A stretch of DNA of 64,000 nt from the NCBI GenBank assembly GCA_963801355.1, contig CAWDEM010000004.1:736001-800000 (forward strand), given 5' to 3'. A program made the position numbers and the translations under genes. Every line of letters begins with the position of its first letter. The stretch's first letter is position 1. The notes beneath the pieces are model-generated. The model was not told where the DNA came from, ran no database searches, and worked only from the letters and a program-made list of their open reading frames with translations. The DNA comes from Ignavibacteriota bacterium (GTDB lineage Bacteria; Bacteroidota; Ignavibacteria; UBA10030; UBA6906). Shown here piece by piece: positions 7,194 through 44,705 of this stretch.

Positions 7194-8532
7194 CTCGTCG
7201 CTCGTCGTCAGAGACGGGGATGAGGTCATTGCCGAAATCCGTGATCTGCATCTTCGGAATGTTCGCTTCCGACCCGGCGGGCGGTTGCTCATCGGCGATG
7301 AAGTTCCCCTGCCGCTCTACTGGGAGCAATATGCAAACCATGAAGATCCCGAACGCAATGCGGGCAGCAATGGCCGGCTTCGCATCGTCGAGGCGTCGGC
7401 GAACTCTGTGAGTGTCGTCTGCGAAGGAACGACACGGTCGGGTACAGTGCACAGCACCTTTGAGACCACATTCCGGTCAGATGAGGGGTTTCGGCGATAC
7501 GACGTTGAGATACGGGCCAGGCTGCGCATACCGGAAGGCTGCACATGGTACGTGACACCGAATCCAGACCATGGAGAGGTCGAGTTCTGCAACCTCTGGC
7601 CGGACGGTGCATTTTCATCCGAACTGCACAAGCCCGTGTGCTACAGTGCCTGCTATATTGACCGTGGTACCGGCGTCACCAAGATCCCGCACCATCATCT
7701 GGAATCACAAGACAAACATAATATCGTTTTGCATACCGGGGACCGGATGGTGTGGCTCCTTGAGGAGGAGAACCTGTGCGTCACACTCCTCTCGGCCAGT
7801 ACTGTCACCGCCGGGATTTGTGCGTATATGTGGGATGCGCACCTGGGCTACAAAGTGTGCACTGATGCAGTTGCGAAATCGCTGGCCGCCGGAACGGAAT
7901 ACCTGGCTGCGTACCGGCTTTCGGCGCTCGATGCCCGGGAGGGGAACCGTCTTGTGGAGTCGGCTGTTCCGGCCTCCGCTCCCGAGCCGGACATGACTCC
8001 TGTGATCGTCGACGGGGTGCAGACCTTCGCCGAGACACTTGCGACCACGGAACGGGATCCCTCCGATGTCTGGCCGTGGGAAACGGAGGTTCACGCGGGC
8101 GATCCCGGCGCAGTGAATTTTTTCGTTGACCGGACATGCGGCCGGGTTGACCACGCATCAGTGTGCATCGATTCTCCGGCTTCCGCCAGAGCCATGTGGA
8201 AAGCGACAGCACTGGGGCCTGCCTTCCGCCAGCCGGACTTCATCGAGGGTGCGCAGTACCGGCTTGGCGCGTACGTGAAAACCGAGCTCGTGTCGGGAGC
8301 GGCGTCCGTGGCGATCCGGGTGCACACAAAAGGGAGCCCCGGTCTCCATGACCCGGGGCAGTATGATATCTTCCGTTGTGCCGCCGGTTTGACAGGCACC
8401 GCGCAGTGGACATATCTTGAGGTGACTACTCCTCCCGTGTATCCCGTTGCAGACAGAATCCATCTCCTCCTGGAAATGCACGGAGCAGGGAAGTGCTGGT
8501 TTGATGATGTTCAATTTCGGAGTCATGTATGA
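7165..8532 (+). CDS. Hypothetical protein with C-terminal CBM4/9-like galactose-binding-fold domain
   Basis: 455 aa beta-rich; C-terminal YRLGAYVKT...GTAQWTYLE...GAGKCWFDDVQF pattern; overlaps both neighbours. Confidence 0.6.
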   Translation: MALTTLQTGDSSLVVRDGDEVIAEIRDLHLRNVRFRPGGRLLIGDEVPLPLYWEQYANHEDPERNAGSNGRLRIVEASANSVSVVCEGTTRSGTVHSTFETTFRSDEGFRRYDVEIRARLRIPEGCTWYVTPNPDHGEVEFCNLWPDGAFSSELHKPVCYSACYIDRGTGVTKIPHHHLESQDKHNIVLHTGDRMVWLLEEENLCVTLLSASTVTAGICAYMWDAHLGYKVCTDAVAKSLAAGTEYLAAYRLSALDAREGNRLVESAVPASAPEPDMTPVIVDGVQTFAETLATTERDPSDVWPWETEVHAGDPGAVNFFVDRTCGRVDHASVCIDSPASARAMWKATALGPAFRQPDFIEGAQYRLGAYVKTELVSGAASVAIRVHTKGSPGLHDPGQYDIFRCAAGLTGTAQWTYLEVTTPPVYPVADRIHLLLEMHGAGKCWFDDVQFRSHV

Positions 8533-35419: not shown

Positions 35420-36199
35420 ATGCGTACTCTGCTCATCTGCATGGCGTTGCTTCTTTCGGCAGTCTCCCCGCTGACCGGGGCTGTCCGGGAAGTACCGTTG
35501 TCATTGTACGCCGAAACCGTTTCTCTTGCATCTGACGGCGGCGCGGAAATCACCGTGCGCACCATCGCCCGGGGGCTATCCGGGGGAGACACGATCGTGG
35601 TTCCGTACGCGTACGCAGGGTGGCCTGACTCCGTCGTGTACGGCGAGAACGTGCGGCAGTTGTTTGCGCAAACCGTGCAGGGACAGCGCAGGACGTTTCT
35701 TGCCCTCAGCGGGACAGTCACCGGGGAGGATACTCTGGAGTACAGGTTCCGGCTCGCTCAGGTGACATCGTTTGCCAAGGCGTCGACGGAGGACTTCGGG
35801 GTCTATGTCGTCTCGTACAGGCTGGTGCAGACCTCAATCGCACCCATTACAGCGGCGTCGGTTTGCGTGGTGTTGCCGGAGGAGATGGTGGTCAACAAAG
35901 TCGTCTCGAGTCTCCCGGTGCGGAAAGCCAACACGCCCGGGTCGCCCTACATTCTTGGCATGAAAGACGGCCGCCATTGCGTGACGCTGACAGATTCCAC
36001 CGTGCAACAAGGAGACGTTCTGTCGCTGGTGTTCCAGGCGAAGGCGGCCGCCAAATCCCCATGGCTGATCCTGGGACTGGTGCTGTGTGCCGCCGCATAT
36101 CTTATTGCGTTCCGTGACCTGCTGAAATCACCGGAAACGGTTGGGAGTATTCCAGGCAAGAACATTCATTCATCATCTTACAAGGAGCAAGGACAATGA
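35420..36199 (+). CDS. Hypothetical exported beta-rich protein with C-terminal membrane anchor
   Basis: ATG 35420 after AGGA; signal peptide MRTLLICMALLLSAVSPLTGA; C-terminal PWLILGLVLCAAAYLIAF; ATGA overlap with porin. Confidence 0.75.
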   Translation: MRTLLICMALLLSAVSPLTGAVREVPLSLYAETVSLASDGGAEITVRTIARGLSGGDTIVVPYAYAGWPDSVVYGENVRQLFAQTVQGQRRTFLALSGTVTGEDTLEYRFRLAQVTSFAKASTEDFGVYVVSYRLVQTSIAPITAASVCVVLPEEMVVNKVVSSLPVRKANTPGSPYILGMKDGRHCVTLTDSTVQQGDVLSLVFQAKAAAKSPWLILGLVLCAAAYLIAFRDLLKSPETVGSIPGKNIHSSSYKEQGQ

Positions 36200-37449
36200 A
36201 AAAAGCCGCAGGAGTTTTGTGTGCACTGTTGATGCTGCTCCCGTGCGTGTCGTCTGCGCAGTCGGAGGGCGGCGCAGATGAGGGGTCGCGGGTGCCGCTG
36301 GGTGTCGAGCAGCGAGCGGGAAAGCTGGTATTCGAGTCGCAAGACGGCGCCTTCAAGTGGTGGATCGACTCGCGCATCCAGGTTGACGGTGCCATGTATT
36401 TTGAAAACAAGAATCCCTTGAGCAACGGGACCATCATGCGCCGTGCGACGTTGGCCTTGAAGACGGTGCTCTGGACAAACTGGCAGGCGGAAATCGATAT
36501 GGATTTCGGCGATGCCGTCCTGGACGCAAGAGACATCTGGATACGGTATAGTTTTCCCAAGACGAATCTCGCCTTGCAGGTCGGGAATTTCAAAGAGCCA
36601 TTTGGTCTGGAACGGCTCGGCAGCTCCCGCCTGCTGACATTTCTGGAGCGTTCAACGCCTACCAACGCGTTCACGCTCGGCCGGCGCATGGGGCTGGCGG
36701 GGCGTTACTGGACCGACTTCGGCCAGTTGACGCTGGCCGTGATGGGGCATGAGCTTGGCACGCGGGTTGACAAGGGGACGCTGGATGAAGGGGTCGAGGC
36801 GGTGGCGCGTGTGACCTTCGCGCCGATCAATGAGAAGGGGAAGACGCTGCACATCGGCGGGGCATACGCCTCGAAGACACCGGACGTCACGCCCGACCTC
36901 GCCCCAAATACCATCGAACTGAAAGCCCGGACCGAGACCTACGTGTTCGATCCCAAGCCCCTGCACTCCGGCGACATCACAGACGTGAACTACTACGACC
37001 GGATGGGCGGCGAGCTGGCCGCTGCCTGCGGTCCGCTCTATGTCCAGGGCGAGGTGTTCACAACGGCAGTGCACCGCTGGTACGAGAAACCAACCGGCAA
37101 CTTCATGGGAGGATACCTGACAGCCAGCTACATGCTCACCGGCGAATCCCGTAGCTACTTCGTCGATGAGGGGGAATTCGGCCCGATCGACCCGCCGGGC
37201 AGCGAGTGGGGCGCACTGGAAGTTGCCGCCCGGTTCAGCCATGCCAATCTCAATGATCATGATGCCGGCATCGGGGGGGGCAAGTGCAACCAGGTGATGC
37301 TCGGGGTCAACTGGTATCCCAATGTGAATATCAAGATTATGCTGAATTTCTCGAACGTGAACCTGGACGAGAACGCCACCAGCAAGGGCCGGATGATAGG
37401 AGGAGACAACTTCTCGTTCCTCCAGATGCGGTTCCAGGCGTCGATGTAA
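36196..37449 (+). CDS. Phosphate-selective porin, OprO/OprP family
   Basis: Signal peptide; SRIQVD, MRRATL, GNFKEPFGLERLGSSRLLTFLERS, GRRMG, YMLTGESRSY, WGALEVAARFS, GVNWYPN, MRFQ. Confidence 0.92.
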   Translation: MKKAAGVLCALLMLLPCVSSAQSEGGADEGSRVPLGVEQRAGKLVFESQDGAFKWWIDSRIQVDGAMYFENKNPLSNGTIMRRATLALKTVLWTNWQAEIDMDFGDAVLDARDIWIRYSFPKTNLALQVGNFKEPFGLERLGSSRLLTFLERSTPTNAFTLGRRMGLAGRYWTDFGQLTLAVMGHELGTRVDKGTLDEGVEAVARVTFAPINEKGKTLHIGGAYASKTPDVTPDLAPNTIELKARTETYVFDPKPLHSGDITDVNYYDRMGGELAAACGPLYVQGEVFTTAVHRWYEKPTGNFMGGYLTASYMLTGESRSYFVDEGEFGPIDPPGSEWGALEVAARFSHANLNDHDAGIGGGKCNQVMLGVNWYPNVNIKIMLNFSNVNLDENATSKGRMIGGDNFSFLQMRFQASM

Positions 37450-37502
37450 TCAGTCCCATGGCTTTGAACACAGATTTGTCATATCTTTCATGAGGTCTCA
37501 AT

Positions 37503-38030
37503 ATGAACTCGCATTATCCGAAGATCCTTCTCGTGATCACTCTTATCGGTTTGACGGTCCTGGCATCATGTTCTCGGGATGAGCCGACGCTTGTCGCGCC
37601 TGTTGTAGTTGTGCCGGGAGCGATAGTCATGAACGATACCTACTCCAGAGGAACTCCCGGCAATCTCGATTGGGTCGAACTCTACAATGTGGGCGGCACG
37701 GCGGTTGATCTTACCGGCTACAAGATCTACGACAGCGGCGGTCAGACGGGCGTAAAATCGAAGAAACCCATTCCGGCAGGTACTGTCGTCCCCGCTCATG
37801 GGTTCTATGTGGTGACCACGGATACGGTCTCGCCAGGGATCGCCGACGATGGCTTCGGGCTGTCAAGTGGCGGAGACGAAGTGTGGCTTGAAAACGCTGC
37901 CGGCGGCGTCATTGACCACGTGCAAATTCCGGCGATGGAGACTACACAGACGTACGGGAGATACCCCGATGGTGGTTCAACGTGGCAACTCCTAAACACC
38001 ATAACGAAGGGCACGTCGAACAAGCAGTAG
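37503..38030 (+). CDS. Lamin-tail-domain (LTD) lipoprotein
   Basis: Lipobox LASC; IVMND...DWVELYN....VDLTGYKIYD...FGLSSGGDEVWL...YGRYPDG...TKGTSN. Confidence 0.9.
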   Translation: MNSHYPKILLVITLIGLTVLASCSRDEPTLVAPVVVVPGAIVMNDTYSRGTPGNLDWVELYNVGGTAVDLTGYKIYDSGGQTGVKSKKPIPAGTVVPAHGFYVVTTDTVSPGIADDGFGLSSGGDEVWLENAAGGVIDHVQIPAMETTQTYGRYPDGGSTWQLLNTITKGTSNKQ

Positions 38031-38102
38031 GAGGGACCGATTTTGGCAATAGAACATGTACATGGGTATCACTTACTATCCTACTCCCCAGGAGGGACAA
38101 CG

Positions 38103-39275
38103 ATGAAAAAACTGTATAGGATTCTTGCGGCGATGTTCGTCGCGTGTACCATCGCGTCGGTGAGCTTCGCGCAGGTACTCCTGAACGAAGCGTATTCGCG
38201 TGGTGTCGTGGGCAATCTGGATTGGGTGGAGGTCTACAACAATTCGGCCAGTGTGATCGATATCAGTGGATACAAGGTCTACGATGACGGTGGCCAGAGC
38301 GGTTCAAAGGACAAGAAACCATTCCCAGCAGGGACCCTCGTTCCTGCGTACGGGTTCGCCGTGATTGTGACCGATACTGCCACGGTCGGACTCAATGACA
38401 AATTCGGCCTGTCAAGCACCGGCGACAAGGTGTGGTTGGAGAACACCTCGGGTGTTCTGCTCGACAGCGTCATTGTTCCTGCGCTGGGCAACGACACTTC
38501 CGTGGCGCGGCAGACGGATGGATCGGCCAGTTGGGTGAAGCTGTCGCCGGTAACCAGGGGGACGACAAACAGCCAGGTCGTGATGAATGAAGTCTATTCC
38601 CGCGGCGTGGTTGGCGCTCTTGATTGGATTGAAATCTACAATGCCAGCGACGGCTCGATCGACATTTCCGGCTACAAGATCTACGACGACGGTGGTCAGT
38701 CGGGTTCAAAGGACAAAAAACCCTTCCCGGCAGGAACTGTCGTCCCTGCTCACGGATTCACTGTGATTGTAACCGATACTGCCACGGTCGGACTCAATGA
38801 CAAATTCGGCCTGTCAAGCACCGGCGACAAAATATGGCTTGAGAACGCAGGTGGCATCATCATTGATAGCGTCGCAATCCCTGCGCTTGGCATTGATACA
38901 TCGTATGCACGAAAACCCGATGGATCGGCGACCTGGGTAAAGATGAGCCCGACGACAAAAAGTCTCACGAACGGCACAGGTACCGCAGTGCGCGAGGAGG
39001 GCTCCGTCGCTACACGGTTCACCCTCGAGCAGAACTATCCCAATCCCTTCAATCCGAGCACAACAATACGATTCTCAGTTGTGGATCCACAATTTACCAC
39101 TCTGAGAGTGTATGACGTGCTCGGGCGTGAGGTAGCGGTCCTGGTGAACGAAGTTGAGCAACCGGGACAGTACACTGTGCAGTTCAACGCGGCAAATCTG
39201 AGCAGCGGCATCTATTTCTACACGCTCCGCGCTGGCAGCTTCGTGGAAACGAAGAAGCTCACCGTCATGAAGTAA
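38103..39275 (+). CDS. Secreted protein with two tandem lamin-tail domains and T9SS C-terminal domain
   Basis: ATG 38103 after AGGAGG; signal peptide ending SFA; two 134-aa LTD repeats; QNYPNPFNPSTTI...SGIYFYTL. Confidence 0.92.
   Translation: MKKLYRILAAMFVACTIASVSFAQVLLNEAYSRGVVGNLDWVEVYNNSASVIDISGYKVYDDGGQSGSKDKKPFPAGTLVPAYGFAVIVTDTATVGLNDKFGLSSTGDKVWLENTSGVLLDSVIVPALGNDTSVARQTDGSASWVKLSPVTRGTTNSQVVMNEVYSRGVVGALDWIEIYNASDGSIDISGYKIYDDGGQSGSKDKKPFPAGTVVPAHGFTVIVTDTATVGLNDKFGLSSTGDKIWLENAGGIIIDSVAIPALGIDTSYARKPDGSATWVKMSPTTKSLTNGTGTAVREEGSVATRFTLEQNYPNPFNPSTTIRFSVVDPQFTTLRVYDVLGREVAVLVNEVEQPGQYTVQFNAANLSSGIYFYTLRAGSFVETKKLTVMK
38370..38830 (+). repeat. 59-bp exact direct repeat (38370-38428 and 38772-38830) within the tandem LTD duplication
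   Basis: accgatactgccacggtcggactcaatgacaaattcggcctgtcaagcaccggcgacaa occurs twice, 402 bp apart. Confidence 0.9.
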
Positions 39276-39307
39276 TGCGGGCACCTCATCGTGTGCTGCC
39301 GGATTGC

Positions 39308-39339
39308 CACAGGAGCCCATCGGACGATGGGCTCCTGTG
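39308..39339 (+). terminator. Strong intergenic hairpin (terminator or mRNA-stabilising stem)
   Basis: CACAGGAGCCCATCG-GA-CGATGGGCTCCTGTG, perfect 15-bp arms 33 nt after the LTD-T9SS stop; only a short T run follows. Confidence 0.65.
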
Positions 39340-39403
39340 TTCCAAAGCTGAGGGATGCACCATGAGTCCTGGCATTGTCGCTGCACCGGGTCGCTCTTCC
39401 ATC

Positions 39404-40165
39404 ATGACCGCACTTCCCAGGATCTGTGTCATGTGTATGGCGGCGTGGGTGATCTGTCTTGTATCGTGCAGTCGTAGTGAGCAGGCCGAGAGCAACCCGG
39501 TCGCGCCCGCGGTGCAGCGGCTCCAACTCATCACATCCTATTCCATGAGCATCTCGGAACCGTCAGGGCTTGTCTACTCCCCCAGGACGCAGAAGCTCTA
39601 CATGGTGTCAGATTCCCGGGCGGCGATCTTCGTCATTGACACCACCGGCCTCATCGTGAGCACGCTCCCGGTGGACGGGCAGGATCTCGAAGGCGTTACG
39701 CTCTCGGCGAACGCGGACACCTTCTATGTGGCGGAGGAGACCCTGTCACAGATCACCTCATATCTCCCCAACGGGGTTAAGATCGCCTCCTTCCCGATCA
39801 GTGTCCGGACGGATACAAAACACGGTCCTGAAGGTGTGACCATGGACGCTGCCGGTCATCTTGTCGTTATCAACGAAAAGTTCCCGATGATGATGCTGGA
39901 GTATACGGGAACCACAGAGGTGAAACGCACGACGCTGCCATACACCACGGACATTTCCGACATCTGTTACGATGCCGCAACGGATGCCTTCTGGATTGTC
40001 AGCGATGAATCACAGATGGTGATAAAGATCTCGCGCACCGGAGCGTTGCTCGGGCAATGGAGTACGCCGGTGAATCAGGGGGAGGGGATCGCGTTCATCG
40101 GCAGCCGGATGTACATAGTGTCTGATACTGATGCGAAGCTCTACGTGTTCGTGAAGCCGTCCTGA
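39404..40165 (+). CDS. SdiA-regulated (YjiK-like) beta-propeller lipoprotein
   Basis: Lipobox LVSC; EPSGL...VSD, DLEGVT...VAEE, GPEGVT...INEK, DISDI...VSDES, QGEGIAF...IVSD repeats. Confidence 0.85.
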   Translation: MTALPRICVMCMAAWVICLVSCSRSEQAESNPVAPAVQRLQLITSYSMSISEPSGLVYSPRTQKLYMVSDSRAAIFVIDTTGLIVSTLPVDGQDLEGVTLSANADTFYVAEETLSQITSYLPNGVKIASFPISVRTDTKHGPEGVTMDAAGHLVVINEKFPMMMLEYTGTTEVKRTTLPYTTDISDICYDAATDAFWIVSDESQMVIKISRTGALLGQWSTPVNQGEGIAFIGSRMYIVSDTDAKLYVFVKPS

Positions 40166-40336
40166 TTACCAAGTCCCCATTCACTCCCGGCCCCGCACAT
40201 CCATGCTCATCACTATTTCCTCTTCCCTCATCGAAAAACACACACTCCGGCTGTAGTAATCTGGTGAGAATCAATGGACGCGAAGCGAGACACCATTGAC
40301 GAACTCACACTCACGTACCCCCCCCAAGGAGCAGCC

Positions 40337-40534
40337 ATGAAAAGAATACTGATTGCGCTTGTCATCGTGCTCTTGCTCTGCGCGACGATCACTGCTGATT
40401 CCTTTGCAAAGCCGGCATCGTGTGTGAATGCACTCCGGCAATGCGCCAATTGGTGCAGTAATTACTACGGTGATTGGTTTCCTCTGGTCGACGCCTGCGA
40501 GACCGGCTGCGCCATCGCGTATCTTTTCTGTTGA
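40337..40534 (+). CDS. Small secreted cysteine-rich peptide (65 aa; about 41 aa mature)
   Basis: AAGGAG 5 nt before ATG; MKRILIALVIVLLLCATITADSFA signal peptide; core KPASCVNALRQCANWCSNYYGDWFPLVDACETGCAIAYLFC. Confidence 0.85.
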   Translation: MKRILIALVIVLLLCATITADSFAKPASCVNALRQCANWCSNYYGDWFPLVDACETGCAIAYLFC

Positions 40535-40548
40535 TCCGGGAGAACGCC

Positions 40549-41547
40549 ATGAACGGTCTTCGCTGGATGCACATGTTGCCGGAGTACCTTTCTGTTCTCG
40601 GCGTGCTCATGATATCTCCCAGCCCGCAGCCGGCCGCCACTCGAGCGCAGACCGTTCTGAACCTCGCCCCGCATGCAACAATCGGCCTCACCGAAGAGAA
40701 TCTCATCCTGGGGGCTTTCGGCCTTGCAGCCCTCCGCGGCGAACACCTGGTCGTCGCGGACAAACTGGAATGCAGCATCAAGGTTTTCAACGCACACTGG
40801 CAGCTGGCGTATTCCACAGGCCGCAGGGGTGAAGGCAACGGAGAGTTCCGGGGGCCAGGTCCTGTCGCGACAACCGACACCCTGATAGCCGTTGCTGACT
40901 TCCAATCCACACGAGTGCAGGTCTTCACGCACCAACTCAGACACCTTTGTACGTTTCACACTGACAGACCCGTTTTCGCGCTTGCCTTCGACGGCACCGG
41001 GCAACTCTGGATCGGGCAATTGCCCAACGCCCGGGGTGAGACGCTCTTCCGTGTTGATATCCGCGGCAACATTTTGGCGCGCATAGCTCTCCGGCACGCT
41101 TCCGGGGACATATTCGACAGTGTCTTCACGCTGGCGATCACAGACAACGGAGAGCTGGTTGTAGCATACATGACCCGCAATATCGTGGAGGTCCGGGATT
41201 CCGCCGGGCGCTTCGTCCGGGACTTCTCTGTTCCTGGAATGCGCGCCGAAGCTGGACGCAGAAAGCTCTCCACCGGCTTGTTCTCGGCCAGTGTGTCAAT
41301 CCCCGAAGAGAATATGTTCCTGGGTGTCACCGCCGGCGGGGACGGCATGATCTACCTGCTCGCTGATGCCTACACCGAGAACCCCCGTCAGGATATCTAC
41401 GTCGTCAACCCGCACGGGAGAGTCATGTCCCGATTGAAGCTTCAGGAAGCATCCTCCGGCATCTGTTGTGACGGCCATGAACGGCTGTTCAGTATCGAAC
41501 GTGCCCGCATGCTCATCCATGTCTACCAGTTGCGGAGACCATCATGA
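40549..41547 (+). CDS. 6-bladed beta-propeller (NHL/TolB-like) protein
   Basis: LVVAD...IKVFN, GRRGEGNGEF, IAVAD...VQVF, DGTGQLWI, TDNGELVV, GGDGMIYL; GGGAG upstream, 14 nt after peptide stop. Confidence 0.85.
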   Translation: MNGLRWMHMLPEYLSVLGVLMISPSPQPAATRAQTVLNLAPHATIGLTEENLILGAFGLAALRGEHLVVADKLECSIKVFNAHWQLAYSTGRRGEGNGEFRGPGPVATTDTLIAVADFQSTRVQVFTHQLRHLCTFHTDRPVFALAFDGTGQLWIGQLPNARGETLFRVDIRGNILARIALRHASGDIFDSVFTLAITDNGELVVAYMTRNIVEVRDSAGRFVRDFSVPGMRAEAGRRKLSTGLFSASVSIPEENMFLGVTAGGDGMIYLLADAYTENPRQDIYVVNPHGRVMSRLKLQEASSGICCDGHERLFSIERARMLIHVYQLRRPS

Positions 41548-42573
41548 TCATTCGGGCGCTGTCATTCTTCCTCGGCGCTGTTTTCCTCGTTGCCGGCGTT
41601 GGGAAAGCTTCTCATGATCGGAACGTTCGCGGCAACCGTGGCAGCCCTGGTACCCGCCACACACGCAGTTGCCCCCGGCGTGGCGATGGTCATTGTAGCA
41701 ATTGAGATCGCCGGAGCACTCGCGCTACTCGCGGATTACAGGACGAGGATGATCTCTCTGCTCTTTTGTGTCGTGGTGGGTGCCTTCATCTGGGTGCTCT
41801 CCGCAGCAATTCTATCCGGGGAAGAGATGAGCTGCAACTGCTTCGGTATCATAGGGATAGCCCTGAGTAATACGCAGGAATTGTTCCTTGACCTTGTGTT
41901 GTTCAATGCCTTTGCCGTCCTGGCCGCCTGCACTCCCCGCCGCGACGCAGTGCCGTCTGGAGGAGATGCGAGTACCGGAGTGAGTGCACGACTCGTTGCC
42001 GGAGGGATGCTTGTACTGCTGGAAGTATTGCTGGTTCTGTTGGTTCTGCGCGGGGGAACAGACAGAAGCGGATTGACATTCGATGCGGTGATTGGCTTTG
42101 CCGAACGCGCAGACGCTCGATTTGCCGCACGCGACAACGGAAACCGCGGCCTGCTGCTCATGAACTATACCGACCTGAACTGCCCTCTGTGCCTGGATGA
42201 TTTCACTGTCTTGCTGGATTCCCTCGAATCAAGATTCGGTGAAAACTCAGACCGGGTGCTTCTGGTCTTCAAAGAAGATCAATTCATCAGGTCCGATTCC
42301 TCGCGACATATGCGGCGGTGGATTGCCGCCAACGGAATCGCGTTTCCCGTGTTCGTCGCGCCTGATTCCGTGTTCGACAGGACCCGGTTTGAAAAGAGCA
42401 CGGCTCTCGTCATCGACCGGCGAAATCATGTACTGCTCGCGGAACGGTTCCCCATGGGCATCACAAAGCGGACAGTTGCTCTTCACCTCCTCGATTCTTC
42501 TGGCTCGATAATTTCGAATTCAGGGACATTGCCTGTATCCAGGATGCGAACAGAGACACTCTTGCCTTTCTGA
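41544..42573 (+). CDS. MauE/DoxX-family membrane protein fused to a thioredoxin-like domain; +1 frameshift near 41601-41607 as assembled
   Basis: ATG 41544 (ATGA overlap) gives MIIRALSFFLGAVFLVAGVGK; continues in +1 frame as LLMIGTF...IEIAGAL...SCNCFG (MauE CxCFG)...NCPLC (CxxC)...IAFPV...ALVIDR. Confidence 0.8.
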
Positions 42574-44522
42574 GGAATTACGACGGTGTAGGTTGTGGAA
42601 TCGCGCTGGATTGTCACATTGCCGGCGGCAGTGCCGGTAGTCGGAAGAAGCGCTGTAACGAGACAGACCTCTTTCCCGGGTTGAACCGTGCTTACGTCGG
42701 CGTACGGGTGCCGGCGGGAAACTTCAAGCGGGATATCCGGAAATGCCGATGTGAATCCCGTGCCTGCTGAGGAGGCGGCAAACCCGAACAAGCTCGCCGA
42801 AGGTCTCCGTACGACAAATCCCTTTTCGTTCGCCTCAATTGCTCCCTTCGCGTCGGAGTTGTGCGTGTAGAAGCGGGCCTGCACCGTCGACGGCGTGGAG
42901 TGCTTGATTACCTTATCCACGATGATTACGGCGGGGATTCGGGTGAGTGTGATGACCGTGCGTGTTATTGCTGCGACATCCGGTTGGACCAGCTTGTAGG
43001 CCGGTGTTGCGTCGCTTGTCCAGTAGAGACATCCGTCCCGTTCACCGCAGCGGATGATCGACGCCGATGCAAGAGACGCGTTCGTACCGTCATGTCCATC
43101 AACGTACTGGTGTCCCTGTCCGTCGATAAGGACGGCGCTGTGCCCGGCTGTGAGCCGCATCTTCCACGACGGGTCACGGAATCCATAGGGCGGACGCATG
43201 GGATCGACGATCAGGCGTTCACCGTAGCATTTGAGCATCATACCGTTCCGGTCTGCGTGCTCATGATTGAACGGCTGGCCGCTCCGCATTGCGACAACAA
43301 GGTCGTCGGTTGCATATCCGGTGCGCCCGACAACCCAGTCCAGGTCCGAGTGCCAGAGATGAGTCGATTCCCGGGGCGGGGTTGCGCGAAGGGTAGTATC
43401 ATAATAGAGCACGGACCAGATATCGCGTGACACTGCCATATTCTCGCCGAACCAACGGGCAAGGCCGCTGCGCGTCTGCCGGGAAATCCAGAATGGAACA
43501 GAGGCATGAGATCCGGTGCTCGCATCACCAAAGTTGACGGTGGTTGTGGGGTCTTCGCGGGAAGGGAAGGTCATCTCGAGCATATAGGTCTGGTAACCGT
43601 CCCAGTTCAGGAGGTCGGTCAGATCCGCAACGCCTCCCCGTTTGAGCGCATCGATGGCCTGGATGAGGTGCAGGGTGGTGTAGTGAGCGTACGAAACGCC
43701 TTCATTGTACGACCCGTCCTTCGCATAGATGTCGCCGAATGTGCCTACGCTGTAGGATGCCTGTTCCAGCCAGCGCCGCGTATCGGCATTCTCCCCGAAG
43801 TGATTCCGGTAGACCAGAGCGGCAAGGGCAAGGGCAGAAGCGGGAATGGCTTTGAGGTTGATCGTATTCAGTATGATCGGCCAGCGCGCCAGGCTGATGC
43901 CCCGATCGAGCGGGCGATGAACGAAAAAGGTGCTGGTTGTGTCCATGGTCCATCCCTTCACGCGGTCCGGATAGCGCATCCCGTACGTTGCCCGGAAACA
44001 CGGCTCTATCCCCCGGGCGGCCGTGGTCTGGAGCCACCGGTCGGTCTGCGACCCGGGGAGACGATCGCCCAGCGCTTCCACGACCAACGCGACGGCAAGG
44101 GCTGAATTGGGAGCCCGTTGGAGACCGATCACATCCTTCCCGCCCTCAAGAAAGTAGTCCCATTTCGGAAACTTCATGAGGGTCTCTATGCACTCTTCGG
44201 CAAGCAGGGCGGCATCCCGGTCGCCGGTGTAGAGATAGACAAGTGCCATCTGCTGGGCAAGAGTCCCCACGCGCTCGATGTCGAAGAGGTGGTCGTTGTA
44301 ATGCACACCGGTCCGAAGAAATGTTCGTTCCCGGGCCCGGTCGACAGTGTCCATCCGATGTCTGAGAGCTTCAAAGACCGGATGTGTGGAGTACAGCTGC
44401 CTGGACCGCGCAACATCGGAGCGGTCAAAGAACACGCCGTGATTGTTATCTGCGGCAAAGAAAGTGCACGAGAAGAGCGCGGTGAAACAGGCAATCAAAA
44501 GGTATCGCATGTGAGGCTTCAT
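42483..44522 (-). CDS. Secreted heparinase II/III-family polysaccharide lyase-like protein
   Basis: Start placed at ATG 44522 (MKPHMRYLLIACFTALFSCTFFA signal); DGSYNEGVSYAHY, VNFGD, HEHADRNG, TAGHSAVLIDGQGH. Confidence 0.85.
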   Translation of the reverse strand: MKPHMRYLLIACFTALFSCTFFAADNNHGVFFDRSDVARSRQLYSTHPVFEALRHRMDTVDRARERTFLRTGVHYNDHLFDIERVGTLAQQMALVYLYTGDRDAALLAEECIETLMKFPKWDYFLEGGKDVIGLQRAPNSALAVALVVEALGDRLPGSQTDRWLQTTAARGIEPCFRATYGMRYPDRVKGWTMDTTSTFFVHRPLDRGISLARWPIILNTINLKAIPASALALAALVYRNHFGENADTRRWLEQASYSVGTFGDIYAKDGSYNEGVSYAHYTTLHLIQAIDALKRGGVADLTDLLNWDGYQTYMLEMTFPSREDPTTTVNFGDASTGSHASVPFWISRQTRSGLARWFGENMAVSRDIWSVLYYDTTLRATPPRESTHLWHSDLDWVVGRTGYATDDLVVAMRSGQPFNHEHADRNGMMLKCYGERLIVDPMRPPYGFRDPSWKMRLTAGHSAVLIDGQGHQYVDGHDGTNASLASASIIRCGERDGCLYWTSDATPAYKLVQPDVAAITRTVITLTRIPAVIIVDKVIKHSTPSTVQARFYTHNSDAKGAIEANEKGFVVRRPSASLFGFAASSAGTGFTSAFPDIPLEVSRRHPYADVSTVQPGKEVCLVTALLPTTGTAAGNVTIQRDSTTYTVVIPQKGKSVSVRILDTGNVPEFEIIEPEESRR

Positions 44523-44676
44523 GGCGTTTCCATGGTGAGATGGTGGGGGGTGACTCGTATATAAGAACCTATGGAATCGTCGCGCAAGAATCAATAATCC
44601 CCGTCCACGGTGCGCAGTTTCTTGAATCTTTCCGTCGGAATCTCCCCTTTCGAATTTTCCCTGCAGGAAGTGCTCC

Positions 44677-44705
44677 TTGACATTCCATCTCCACTGGCGT
44701 ATCAT
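44677..44705 (+). promoter_or_regulatory. Putative sigma70-type promoter (TTGACA-17-TATCAT)
   Basis: Near-consensus hexamers with 17-nt spacer, ~50 nt upstream of ATG 44757. Confidence 0.7.

What the first reader, a model, noticed from the sequence alone, without database searches (positions are those of the whole stretch)
40337..42573. Candidate undescribed disulfide-peptide system: secreted six-Cys peptide + beta-propeller + MauE-thioredoxin fusion
Seen: three tightly packed co-oriented genes (14-nt gap, then ATGA overlap), set off from the upstream locus by ~170 nt. They encode a 65-aa Sec-exported peptide with six core cysteines, a 6-bladed propeller, and a MauE/DoxX domain (CNCFG) fused to a CxxC (CPLC) thioredoxin-like domain. 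Established: in the methylamine dehydrogenase cluster, MauE and the thioredoxin-like MauD are needed to mature the disulfide-rich small subunit MauA, which partners the propeller subunit MauB. Inference: this is a miniature, non-MADH reuse of that logic, with a private oxidative-folding enzyme for a RiPP-like peptide and the propeller as binding partner, receptor or immunity protein. The product could be antimicrobial, signalling or an enzyme inhibitor.
Basis: partly seen in the sequence, partly recalled or inferred. Interest (0 to 1): 0.85.

Follow-up and report, generated by a model that had tools for sequence, protein, structure and literature searches.

The report
Six-cysteine peptide, propeller, own disulfide enzyme
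A small exported six-cysteine peptide, a six-bladed propeller protein predicted to bind it, and a membrane enzyme that forms disulfide bonds make up a conserved but unnamed gene cassette in Ignavibacteria-type bacteria; what it does is unknown.

Summary
Three co-oriented genes at 40337-42573 encode a 65-aa signal-peptide protein with six core cysteines, an NHL-type six-bladed propeller, and a MauE membrane domain (CNCFG) fused through a fifth helix to a CPLC thioredoxin fold. The fusion gene has one extra base at 41601-41606.

The peptide gene sits directly upstream of the propeller in 32 loci of 30 genomes or MAGs. A MauE and/or thioredoxin gene is adjacent in 26 of the 30 loci that could be tested.

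The peptide family has 161 representatives at 50% clustering, six invariant cysteines, and no covering Pfam or NCBIfam model. A complex prediction docks the mature peptide on the propeller (ipSAE 0.70; best control 0.01). A 2026 preprint shows that MauE replaces DsbB through its CXC motif.

This genome has no DsbB or VKOR, and this is its only MauE. Fuller cassettes in relatives add an ABC-2-type exporter, and some add a LuxR regulator.

Most likely this is a self-sufficient oxidative-folding cassette for a disulfide-locked helical-hairpin peptide that works bound to its propeller. Its biological role is untested. MauE-thioredoxin fusions and private Dsb pairs are known, and this scan met similar cassettes on other DNA.

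The parts
40326..40331 (+). Shine-Dalgarno-like AAGGAG, 5 nt before the peptide ATG
   Evidence: Read from the sequence. It supports the 40337 start over the upstream ATG at 40274. Homologs also start with MKK/MKR.
40337..40408 (+). Signal peptide of the six-Cys peptide (residues 1-24, MKR + hydrophobic core + DSFA)
   Evidence: Sequence features. Ala at -1 in 61% and Lys at +1 in 59% of 107 family members. The cleavage site is inferred; no signal-peptide predictor was run.
40409..40534 (+). Mature 41-residue peptide (KPASC...YLFC) plus stop codon. Motif C-x6-C-x3-C-loop-C-x3-C-x6-C with a conserved G-C-x-I-G-Y-L-x-C end
   Evidence: Six Cys are invariant in 9 orthologs and in 107 members that I chose for carrying the motif. 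163 of 178 retrieved family proteins carry the motif. dN/dS is 0.28 against the G002 ortholog.
40549..41547 (+). NHL-type six-bladed beta-propeller (332 aa) with an N-terminal hydrophobic helix. Predicted binding partner of the peptide
   Evidence: Profile against PDB: TRIM/Thin NHL, E 1.5e-50. AF2 pLDDT 91. Foldseek Brat NHL, E 2e-18. Complex prediction ipSAE 0.70 against best control 0.01. Always directly downstream of the peptide gene.
41544..41606 (+). Start of the MauE-thioredoxin gene, frame A (MIIRALSFFLGAVFLVAGVGK, most of TM1)
   Evidence: It aligns with the N-termini of the intact G002 and G001 orthologs.
41601..41606 (+). Frameshift site: one extra base in the run GGGAAA
   Evidence: DNA alignment with the G002 and G001 orthologs. 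The only metagenome contig covering the place (run X4, about 96% identical) lacks one base here (table 4).
41605..41928 (+). Rest of the MauE domain in frame B (TM1 end to TM4) with conserved Lys, Glu and CNCFG (41833-41847)
   Evidence: Pfam MauE 7.8e-11. K6, E39, C82, C84, F85 and G86 are invariant in 10 and in 20 sequences. These are the features named for MauE in bioRxiv 10.64898/2026.03.05.709764.
41992..42048 (+). Fifth transmembrane helix linking MauE to the thioredoxin domain
   Evidence: Hydrophobic stretch. Helix 146-170 in the AF2 model of the G001 ortholog.
42070..42573 (+). Thioredoxin-fold domain with CPLC (42181-42192). The last ~25 codons are a non-conserved tail that overlaps the convergent heparinase-like gene
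   Evidence: Foldseek ResA/StoA/CcmG, E 3.5e-4, TM 0.65 by target. CxxC is invariant. Weak profile hit to a Dsb oxidoreductase, E 0.017. The tail is absent from the G001/G004 orthologs.

Best explanation
This is a conserved, self-sufficient cassette that makes a disulfide-locked mini-protein outside the cytoplasm. Steps marked 'shown' rest on a call or on published work for homologs; the rest are inferred.

1. The 65-aa precursor is exported by Sec and loses a 24-residue signal peptide (inferred from the sequence).
2. The thioredoxin domain (CPLC) sits on the periplasmic side, held by a fifth membrane helix. It oxidises the six cysteines of the peptide to three disulfides (inferred).
3. The thioredoxin domain is re-oxidised by the CNC motif of the fused MauE four-helix domain, which passes the electrons to a quinone. 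This is shown for MauE homologs in E. coli and inferred here.
4. The cysteine spacing (i, i+7, i+11 and its mirror image) fits two antiparallel helices stapled by three nested disulfides, probably C29-C65, C36-C58 and C40-C54 (inferred).
5. The folded peptide docks through one face of helix 1 and the conserved I-G-Y-L segment of helix 2 onto one face of the NHL propeller (predicted).

The peptide-propeller pair is the invariant core. The oxidase is fused, split or supplied in trans. Most relatives outside the window's family add an ABC-2-type exporter, and some add a LuxR regulator.

My leaning for the role is a periplasmic or secreted bioactive or signalling peptide, held or handled by its propeller, with the ABC system for export or self-protection. 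About 0.3 of the 0.6 confidence rests on that last part.

In this assembly the oxidase gene carries a one-base insertion. That is either an assembly error or a very recent break.
For: Conserved linkage:
- 9 of 10 loci of relatives with the fusion protein have the peptide and a propeller.
- 14 of 15 species-collection loci have them.
- 13 of 13 peptide-anchored loci have the propeller next door. 8 of these have an adjacent MauE/Trx hit, 1 is cut by its contig end and 4 have none.
- After removing duplicates this is 32 loci in 30 genomes or MAGs.

Family and selection:
- 161 representatives at E<=1e-3, with six invariant Cys.
- Purifying selection on all three genes: dN/dS 0.23-0.30 against G002.

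MauE features:
- K, E and CxCFG are invariant.
- These match the experimentally defined active site and conserved residues of MauE, which replaces DsbB in two E. coli assays (preprint Results).
- Topology is 4 TM + 1 TM + thioredoxin fold.

No other route in this genome:
- The genome is rated 100% complete. It has no DsbB or VKOR match, and this is its only MauE.
- In family f1 none of 7 further cassette-bearing genomes has VKOR or DsbB.

Oxidase linkage:
- Of 4 genomes whose peptide-propeller loci lack an adjacent oxidase, 3 have VKOR elsewhere.
- G040, G048 and G357, whose loci carry only the Trx part, have a stand-alone MauE elsewhere.

Binding:
- ipSAE was 0.70, 0.71 and 0.50 in three runs. 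The best of 3 controls was 0.01. Partner pLDDT was 76-81. The mark was reached by 116 of 157 solved complexes and 2 of 215 mismatched pairs; the tool says these counts hold only roughly with own alignments.
- Peptide contacts at 30, 33-34 and 37-38 follow helical periodicity.
- Contacts at 59-64 cover the most conserved non-Cys segment.
Against: - There is no evidence of expression, and no measurement of disulfides or binding.
- The predicted interface on the propeller is not more conserved than the rest of the protein: mean information 1.98 against 2.11, and 7729 of 10000 random residue sets score as high.
- The nearest solved thioredoxin folds (ResA, StoA, CcmG) are mostly reductases, recalled. 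The fold alone therefore does not give the direction of electron flow.
- No curated thioredoxin HMM matches the C-terminal domain.
- The peptide fold was not modelled on its own. Its profile match to alpha-hairpinins is not significant (E 0.3).
- Mature peptides are neutral to acidic (median net charge 0, range -11 to +2, n=107), unlike typical cationic membrane-active bacteriocins.
- One relative (G052, L031) has a MauE-Trx fusion with no peptide or propeller found nearby.
- 4 of 16 genomes with a linked oxidase also have VKOR, so 'brings its own oxidase because none exists' is only a trend among related genomes.
- G300 has the pair but no MauE, VKOR or DsbB match above cut-off.
- The oxidase gene is frameshifted in this very window.
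Confidence: 0.6

Rival explanations
1. Obligate two-subunit periplasmic protein. The peptide is a permanent small subunit of the propeller, with an architecture like the methylamine or quinohemoprotein amine dehydrogenase heavy and light subunits. The complex has an enzymatic, sensing or transport-accessory role, for example as periplasmic partner of the ABC-2 system. It is not a released bioactive peptide.
For: - The peptide-propeller adjacency is the invariant core (13 of 13 peptide-anchored loci).
- The most conserved non-Cys residues of the peptide lie in the predicted interface.
- The peptides are not cationic.
- The gene set mirrors mauB/mauE/mauD/mauA in content.
- An ABC ATPase and a multi-TM protein follow the cassette in 11 of 13 loci scanned and in 2 more.
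Against: - No candidate cofactor residue is invariant. Tyr62 is 87%, replaced by F/W and others.
- No invariant His or acidic cluster appears in 32 propellers, so a PAL-like metal site is not present.
- The closest folds are NHL interaction domains.
- Tandem peptide copies (L025) and paralogous modules with unrelated Cys peptides (L034, L062) look more like diversifying secreted products.
Confidence: 0.22
2. General housekeeping oxidase. The MauE-thioredoxin fusion is simply this organism's general disulfide-forming system. Its position beside the peptide and propeller has no functional meaning.
For: It is the only MauE in the genome, and no DsbB or VKOR was found. The preprint argues that MauE is a generalist.
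Against: - With P0003 as query, only 9 of 36 further genomes of the same family match at all.
- All 7 strong matches there sit in the cassette.
- The linkage persists across families in fused, split and Trx-only forms.
- A housekeeping gene would not be missing from most close relatives.
Confidence: 0.08
3. Metal-binding or reductive system. The six cysteines stay reduced and bind a metal such as copper, as in a metallochaperone or storage peptide. The thioredoxin domain keeps them reduced or shuffles disulfides.
For: - Six invariant cysteines.
- The thioredoxin fold is closest to ResA/StoA/CcmG-type proteins.
- Weak, non-significant profile hits to ScsC-type copper-resistance proteins (E 0.12-0.44).
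- One locus (L064) lies next to a heavy-metal P-type ATPase.
Against: - MauE homologs act as oxidases and lack the features of reducing pathways (preprint).
- No CcdA/DsbD-type partner appears in the cassette.
- The mirrored cysteine spacing fits paired helices.
- The metal-transporter neighbour is seen in 1 of 13 loci scanned.
Confidence: 0.07
4. Decaying remnant in this genome. The cassette is no longer functional in this strain, with the oxidase broken and no ABC genes. The peptide and propeller are on their way out. This reading concerns this strain only and can hold together with any of the others.
For: Frameshift at 41601-41606. No ABC genes; a convergent heparinase-like gene lies right behind.
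Against: - dN/dS is 0.23 in the part downstream of the shift, as low as in the intact genes.
- All same-family loci lack ABC genes yet keep intact cassettes.
- The site is a homopolymer run, where assemblies often err (recalled). A 96%-identical contig lacks the extra base.
Confidence: 0.15

Closest known systems
mauB-mauE-mauD-mauA core of methylamine dehydrogenase clusters (Paracoccus denitrificans; van der Palen 1997, seen only as a citation)
   Same: A MauE membrane protein, a CxxC thioredoxin-like protein, a small exported disulfide-rich polypeptide and a beta-propeller partner are encoded together.
   Different: - The peptide has 41 residues and no match to the MauA Pfam model.
- The propeller is a 6-bladed NHL type; MauB is recalled as 7-bladed.
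- MauE and the thioredoxin are fused here.
- No candidate cofactor residue is invariant.
MauE as a DsbB-like disulfide-forming protein, including MauE-thioredoxin fusions (bioRxiv 10.64898/2026.03.05.709764)
   Same: CXC followed by F-G, conserved Lys and Glu, and a four-helix core. Fusion to a thioredoxin-superfamily domain occurs in 8.2% of InterPro MauE entries.
   Different: The preprint treats MauE as a generalist. In the Results section I read, it does not describe linkage to a peptide or a propeller. Here the enzyme travels with one small substrate candidate.
Candidate RiPP clusters with mauE/mauD homologs in Streptomyces (decRiPPter, PMC7794033; passages read)
   Same: mauE (3 families) and mauD (1 family) sit next to predicted precursors with at least 8 cysteines, read as peptide-directed disulfide machinery.
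   Different: These are Actinobacteria with other precursor families. No propeller is mentioned in the passages read, and the clusters are untested there too.
Sublancin operon sunA-sunT-bdbA-sunS-bdbB of Bacillus phage SPbeta, and VKOR-thioredoxin fusions (both recalled, not checked here)
   Same: A private membrane oxidase plus a thioredoxin-like partner is dedicated to a disulfide-containing secreted peptide. VKOR fusions use the same 4 TM + 1 TM + thioredoxin design.
   Different: The oxidase family differs (DsbB or VKOR against MauE). Sublancin has a leader and a dedicated exporter, and is glycosylated. No propeller is involved.
NHLRC2 and SOQ1 (thioredoxin-like domain + NHL propeller in one protein)
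   Same: A thioredoxin-like domain is combined with an NHL six-bladed propeller. Both proteins appear among the profile hits of the propeller.
   Different: These are eukaryotic or plastid proteins with the domains fused. No small cysteine-rich partner is known to me. The similarity is at the level of NHL repeats only.
Alpha-hairpinins and CHCH-type helical hairpins (plant defence peptides, mitochondrial twin-CX3C/CX9C proteins)
   Same: Paired CX3C motifs lie on two helices. The best PDB profile hits of the peptide, though not significant, are hairpinins.
   Different: There is a third, outer cysteine pair (CX6C), a bacterial origin and a Sec signal. Homology is not shown (E 0.3 and above). 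The fold was not modelled here.

Membership tests
MauE (PF07291), DsbB-like disulfide-forming membrane protein | Pfam model matched above the gathering score | tested here: met
   42.8 bits against a cut-off of 27, E 7.8e-11. Only profile positions 20-122 match, because the first helix lies in another frame.
MauE (PF07291), DsbB-like disulfide-forming membrane protein | CXC active-site motif followed by Phe-Gly, in the loop before the fourth helix | tested here: met
   CNCFG at 41833-41847. C, C, F and G are invariant in 10 and in 20 cassette proteins. The feature is defined in the preprint.
MauE (PF07291), DsbB-like disulfide-forming membrane protein | Conserved Lys (helix 1) and Glu (helix 2) near the predicted quinone site | tested here: met
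   K6 and E39 of P0003 are invariant. Their equivalence to the preprint's residues is by position, which is inferred.
MauE (PF07291), DsbB-like disulfide-forming membrane protein | Intact reading frame | tested here: not met
   One extra base at 41601-41606 splits the gene. It is absent from 2 orthologs and 1 near-identical contig.
MauE (PF07291), DsbB-like disulfide-forming membrane protein | Can replace DsbB or oxidise a thioredoxin-like partner | not testable with these tools
   This needs the complementation assays used in the preprint.
Thioredoxin fold, TlpA/ResA/MauD-like | Thioredoxin fold with CxxC at the start of the first helix | tested here: met
   AF2 model of the G001 ortholog, pLDDT 83. 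Foldseek ResA E 3.5e-4, TM 0.65 by target. CxxC is invariant.
Thioredoxin fold, TlpA/ResA/MauD-like | Match to a curated thioredoxin-family HMM | tested here: not met
   No Pfam hit at E<=0.01 and no NCBIfam hit at E<=0.1 for the C-terminal half. The best PDB profile hit is a Dsb protein at E 0.017.
NHL-repeat six-bladed beta-propeller | NHL repeats and a six-bladed fold | tested here: met
   Profile against PDB: TRIM/Thin NHL, E 1.5e-50. Foldseek Brat NHL, E 2e-18. The single-sequence Pfam NHL score is just under cut-off (18.7 against 20).
Peptidyl-alpha-hydroxyglycine alpha-amidating lyase (an NHL enzyme) | Conserved metal-binding His residues and catalytic Tyr/Arg (recalled) | tested here: not met
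   The invariant columns in 32 propellers are D71, N211, P252, L271 and L298, with no invariant His. The PAL hit covers repeats only (E 1e-11).
Methylamine dehydrogenase (mau) system | MauA light subunit (PF02975) and 7-bladed MauB heavy subunit | tested here: not met
   The peptide matches no Pfam family. The propeller is a 6-bladed NHL type. The own-genome search for PF02975 found nothing, but its control rang in no genome, so that part is inconclusive.
RiPP (ribosomally made, post-translationally modified peptide) in the strict sense | Leader peptide recognised by modifying enzymes, with modifications beyond disulfides | tested here: not met
   The N-terminus is a Sec-type signal. The cassette holds no recognisable modifying enzyme besides the oxidase in 13 loci scanned.
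Alpha-hairpinin / CHCH helical hairpin | Two antiparallel helices joined by paired CX3C (or CX9C) disulfides | tested here: inconclusive
   The motif is present with an extra outer pair. Profile hits are at E 0.3-10, not significant. Peptide contacts in the complex model show helical periodicity. No stand-alone model was made.
Lantibiotic-type LanFEG self-protection ABC transporter (in relatives' cassettes only) | ATPase reaching the NCBIfam cut-off of TIGR03740 | tested here: not met
   The best score is 171 bits against a cut-off of 309.75. DrrA and GldA models score similarly, also below cut-off. The window has no ABC gene in the cassette.

The most novel reading that the evidence does not exclude
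MauE, a small exported cysteine-rich peptide and an NHL propeller form a general, modular and so far unrecognised class of periplasmic peptide systems in bacteria that lack DsbB. The propeller is a dedicated receptor, chaperone or immunity protein for a disulfide-locked mini-protein. Unrelated peptide families plug into the same chassis, as in L034 and L062 and in earlier scan findings on other genomes. With the ABC-2 exporter and LuxR regulator of the fuller cassettes, this would be a Sec-dependent, self-oxidising bacteriocin or signalling system of Gram-negative bacteria.
Probability: 0.3. Interest if true: 0.8.

Novelty: new variant of a known kind. Interest (0 to 1): 0.6.

Why it matters
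It gives a concrete natural substrate candidate for the newly recognised MauE disulfide pathway. It also names an unannotated mini-protein family: 161 clusters at 50% identity, with no Pfam or NCBIfam model.

The cassette pairs a triple-disulfide helical hairpin with a cognate NHL propeller. This is a compact, testable example of how bacteria without a general Dsb system can still make disulfide-rich exported peptides.

Such peptides are stable scaffolds and may be bioactive. The same chassis seems to carry several unrelated peptide families.

Tried and rejected
- The search for related loci with the peptide alignment failed because no stretch was conserved enough. I used the fusion-protein alignment instead.
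- No RNA holder was listed for the stretch, so nothing can be said on expression.
- The four DNA runs laid hold only pieces of relatives. One contig bridges the frameshift site.
- The peptide profile against PDB gave only non-significant hits.
- The ESM Atlas gave unnamed 68-72-aa clusters at 0.86-0.87, leads only.
- Pfam and NCBIfam scans of 107 members gave sporadic chance hits: BSMAP in 3 of 107, and single hits otherwise.
- The word-indexed search with the propeller profile was capped at 8000 candidates and gave 9 proteins, only one with a name, '6-bladed beta-propeller'.
- A test of whether the predicted propeller interface is specially conserved was negative.
- I considered a PAL-like enzyme and a cofactor-bearing small subunit. 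I rejected both for lack of invariant catalytic or cofactor residues.
- The upstream genes (porin, LTD proteins, SdiA-regulated propeller) are not part of the cassette. They are not conserved next to it in other genomes.
- Literature searches found no description of this peptide family or cassette:
  - MauE / thioredoxin / NHL / cysteine-rich
  - DUF5128 / NVEALA / 6-bladed beta-propeller / BF3164
  - MauE / MauD / disulfide
  - Ignavibacteria / bacteriocin / cysteine-rich peptide / NHL repeat / disulfide
- The preprint's supplements were not seen.
- Scan notebook: nothing near this place and no sequence look-alikes.
Full report
**What is there.**
- Peptide gene: 40337-40534.
- Propeller gene: 40549-41547, after a 14-nt gap.
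- Fusion gene: starts at 41544 in an ATGA overlap and ends at 42573.
- The gap to the upstream gene is 171 nt. AAGGAG lies five bases before the peptide's ATG.
- The peptide has a typical signal (MKR, hydrophobic core, DSFA) and a 41-residue mature part with C-x6-C-x3-C...C-x3-C-x6-C.

The third gene is in two frames. The first 21 codons (most of helix 1) are in one frame and the rest in another. Compared with the orthologs of two species of the same genus, the window has one extra base in GGGAAA at 41601-41606. The only metagenome contig that covers the place, about 96% identical, also lacks one base there. The part downstream of the shift is as constrained as the two intact genes: dN/dS is 0.23, against 0.28 and 0.30, versus the 78%-identical ortholog. 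The shift is therefore an assembly error or very recent.

**The proteins.** The propeller is an NHL six-bladed propeller.
- Its family profile hits TRIM/Thin NHL structures at E 1.5e-50. It hits PAL, SOQ1 and NHLRC2 more weakly.
- The AF2 model has pLDDT 91. The best Foldseek hits are Brat/TRIM NHL domains.
- Single-sequence Pfam NHL is just under cut-off.
- In 32 cassette propellers no His or acidic cluster is invariant, so I see no PAL-like active site.

The fusion matches Pfam MauE. Its invariant residues are a Lys in helix 1, a Glu in helix 2 and CxCFG. These are the features that a 2026 preprint defines for MauE. In that work, MauE from two phyla restored motility and PhoA activity in E. 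coli lacking dsbB. Mutation of either Cys of the CXC abolished this. 8.2% of InterPro MauE entries are fused to a thioredoxin-superfamily domain (bioRxiv 10.64898/2026.03.05.709764; abstract and Results read).

The model of an intact ortholog shows four helices, a fifth helix and a thioredoxin fold closest to ResA/StoA/CcmG. With the CXC loop periplasmic, as in the preprint, the fifth helix puts the CPLC domain on the same side. No curated thioredoxin HMM matches this domain.

**Is the linkage real?** Three separate starting points agree.
- From the fusion protein, 18 of 61 related genomes match.
  - Of 10 loci fetched, 9 have the peptide family immediately upstream of a propeller and the fusion. 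One of them has two tandem peptide genes.
  - The tenth (G052) has a fusion with a long insert, and I found no peptide or propeller nearby.
- A scan of one genome per species with the fusion's CxxC pattern gave 15 loci. The records are titled Ignavibacteria, Ignavibacteriota or Bacteroidota MAGs, plus one 'Acidobacteriota' MAG that the genome tool places in the window's order.
  - 14 have peptide, propeller and fusion in that order. The fifteenth is cut by its contig end.
  - Five of the 15 are the same contigs as loci already fetched.
- From the peptide profile, 13 of 401 genomes sampled across the phylum match.
  - In 13 of 13 further loci the propeller gene follows the peptide gene on the same strand.
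  - 8 have an adjacent MauE and/or thioredoxin hit, 1 is cut by the contig end and 4 have none.

Without duplicates this is 32 loci in 30 genomes or MAGs. The peptide-propeller pair is therefore the core. The oxidase appears fused, split (MauE before the peptide and thioredoxin after the propeller, L062), reduced to the thioredoxin part, or absent from the locus.

**Private or general oxidase?** This genome is rated 100% complete. It has no DsbB and no VKOR match, and its only MauE is this gene.
- None of 7 other cassette-bearing genomes of the same family has DsbB or VKOR.
- Most genomes of the family have no match to the fusion at all: 9 of 36 match, and the 7 strong ones are all in cassettes. 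This argues against a housekeeping role.
- Of the 4 genomes whose peptide-propeller loci lack an oxidase, 3 have VKOR elsewhere and 1 (G300) has nothing above cut-off.
- Of 16 genomes with a linked oxidase, 4 also have VKOR.
- Three genomes with only the thioredoxin part in the locus have a stand-alone MauE elsewhere.

This fits a cassette that carries its own oxidase where needed. The numbers are small and the genomes are related to each other.

**The peptide family.**
- A profile search of 1.84 billion representatives gave 161 proteins at E<=1e-3 and 34 at E<=1e-10. Nearly all are 55-95 aa.
- 163 of the 178 proteins retrieved in the two searches carry the full cysteine motif.
- All source names are 'hypothetical protein' and none has a Pfam domain.
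- Scans of 107 members against Pfam and NCBIfam gave only sporadic chance hits.
- In those 107, which I chose for having the motif, the conserved positions besides Cys are A32, L33, G57 (96%), I60, G61 (90%) and an aromatic residue at 62 (Tyr 87%). Loops are 5-18 residues. The median net charge is 0.
- Cysteines at i, i+7, i+11 and the mirror image lie on one face of each of two helices. Three nested disulfides in a helical hairpin are the natural reading, but this is inferred.
- Two long proteins match the profile in several stretches, and one of them repeats the cysteine unit in tandem, which suggests an autonomous fold.

**Peptide and propeller.** The complex prediction gave ipSAE 0.70, 0.71 and 0.50, against 0.01 for the best of three controls. 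Partner pLDDT was 76-81, and the runs shared at least 85% of contacts. The mark was reached by 116 of 157 solved complexes and 2 of 215 mismatched pairs; the tool says these counts hold only roughly with my own alignments.
- Peptide contacts are residues 25, 30, 33-34, 37-38, 56-57 and 59-64.
- Propeller contacts come from several blades on one face, including the invariant P252.
- The propeller interface as a whole is not more conserved than the rest of the protein.

**Wider context.** In 11 of 13 loci annotated with Pfam, an ABC ATPase follows the cassette. Its best NCBIfam models are DrrA, GldA and lantibiotic-protection, all below cut-off. A protein of about 260 aa with 4-9 hydrophobic segments comes next in most of them. 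Two more order-level relatives have the same. Three loci have a LuxR-type regulator upstream.

The loci of the window's own family lack the ABC genes. Their downstream neighbours differ: heparinase-like, MFS, LTD and Yip1 genes.

Two loci hold further MauE-propeller modules, with other small cysteine-rich ORFs between them, two of which begin with a signal-like N-terminus. Two genomes have 9 and 13 MauE matches. The scan's own notebook holds similar cassettes from at least four other genomes, with two-, six- and ten-cysteine peptides. None resembles this peptide or propeller in sequence.

**Known or new?** Several parts are already known.
- MauE as an oxidase and MauE-thioredoxin fusions are in the 2026 preprint.
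- mauE/mauD homologs next to cysteine-rich candidate precursors were noted in Streptomyces (PMC7794033, passages read).
- Private oxidase pairs for disulfide bacteriocins are known (sublancin; recalled).

What I did not find in four literature searches or in the family libraries is this peptide family, its obligate pairing with an NHL propeller, and the cassette as a unit. I rate it a new variant of a known kind. The biological role remains open.

Noticed in passing
window 36196-40165 (+): Upstream co-oriented run: a phosphate-selective porin O/P (36196-37449), two lamin-tail-domain proteins (37503-38030, and 38043-39275 with a type IX secretion sorting tail), and an SdiA-regulated/phytase-like propeller (39275-40165). 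This may be a surface nutrient-scavenging locus. It is not conserved next to the cassette elsewhere.
   Followed up: partly
window 42483-44705 (-): A heparinase II/III-like protein of 740 aa converges on the fusion gene, and the two ORFs overlap by 91 nt. The last ~25 residues of the fusion ORF are not conserved in the G001/G004 orthologs, so the true stop may have been lost in this lineage.
   Followed up: partly
L034:1882-2115, L034:8620-8775, L062:9185-9415: Additional MauE-propeller modules in the same loci hold other small ORFs rich in cysteine, unrelated in sequence to this family; the ORFs at L034:1882 and L062:9185 also start with a signal-like N-terminus.
   Followed up: partly
L066:5553-5735: A family member in a full cassette lacks the first and last cysteine (four Cys left). 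It is either a two-disulfide variant or a decayed copy.
   Followed up: no
L025:1127-1330 and L025:1590-1796: Two tandem peptide genes of the family lie before one propeller, which is split in two ORFs in that MAG, and one fusion gene.
   Followed up: no
P0161 (231 aa), P0053 (773 aa): Longer proteins match the peptide profile in 3 and 5 stretches. In P0161 the cysteine unit is repeated in tandem.
   Followed up: no
L039 = L068 (G333): The record title calls this MAG Acidobacteriota, while the genome tool groups it in the same order as the window. The wider taxonomic range of the family is therefore less certain than the titles suggest.
   Followed up: no
G234 and G249 (whole genomes): 13 and 9 MauE matches per genome, several clustered on one contig. 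This is an expansion that may mark many peptide modules.
   Followed up: no
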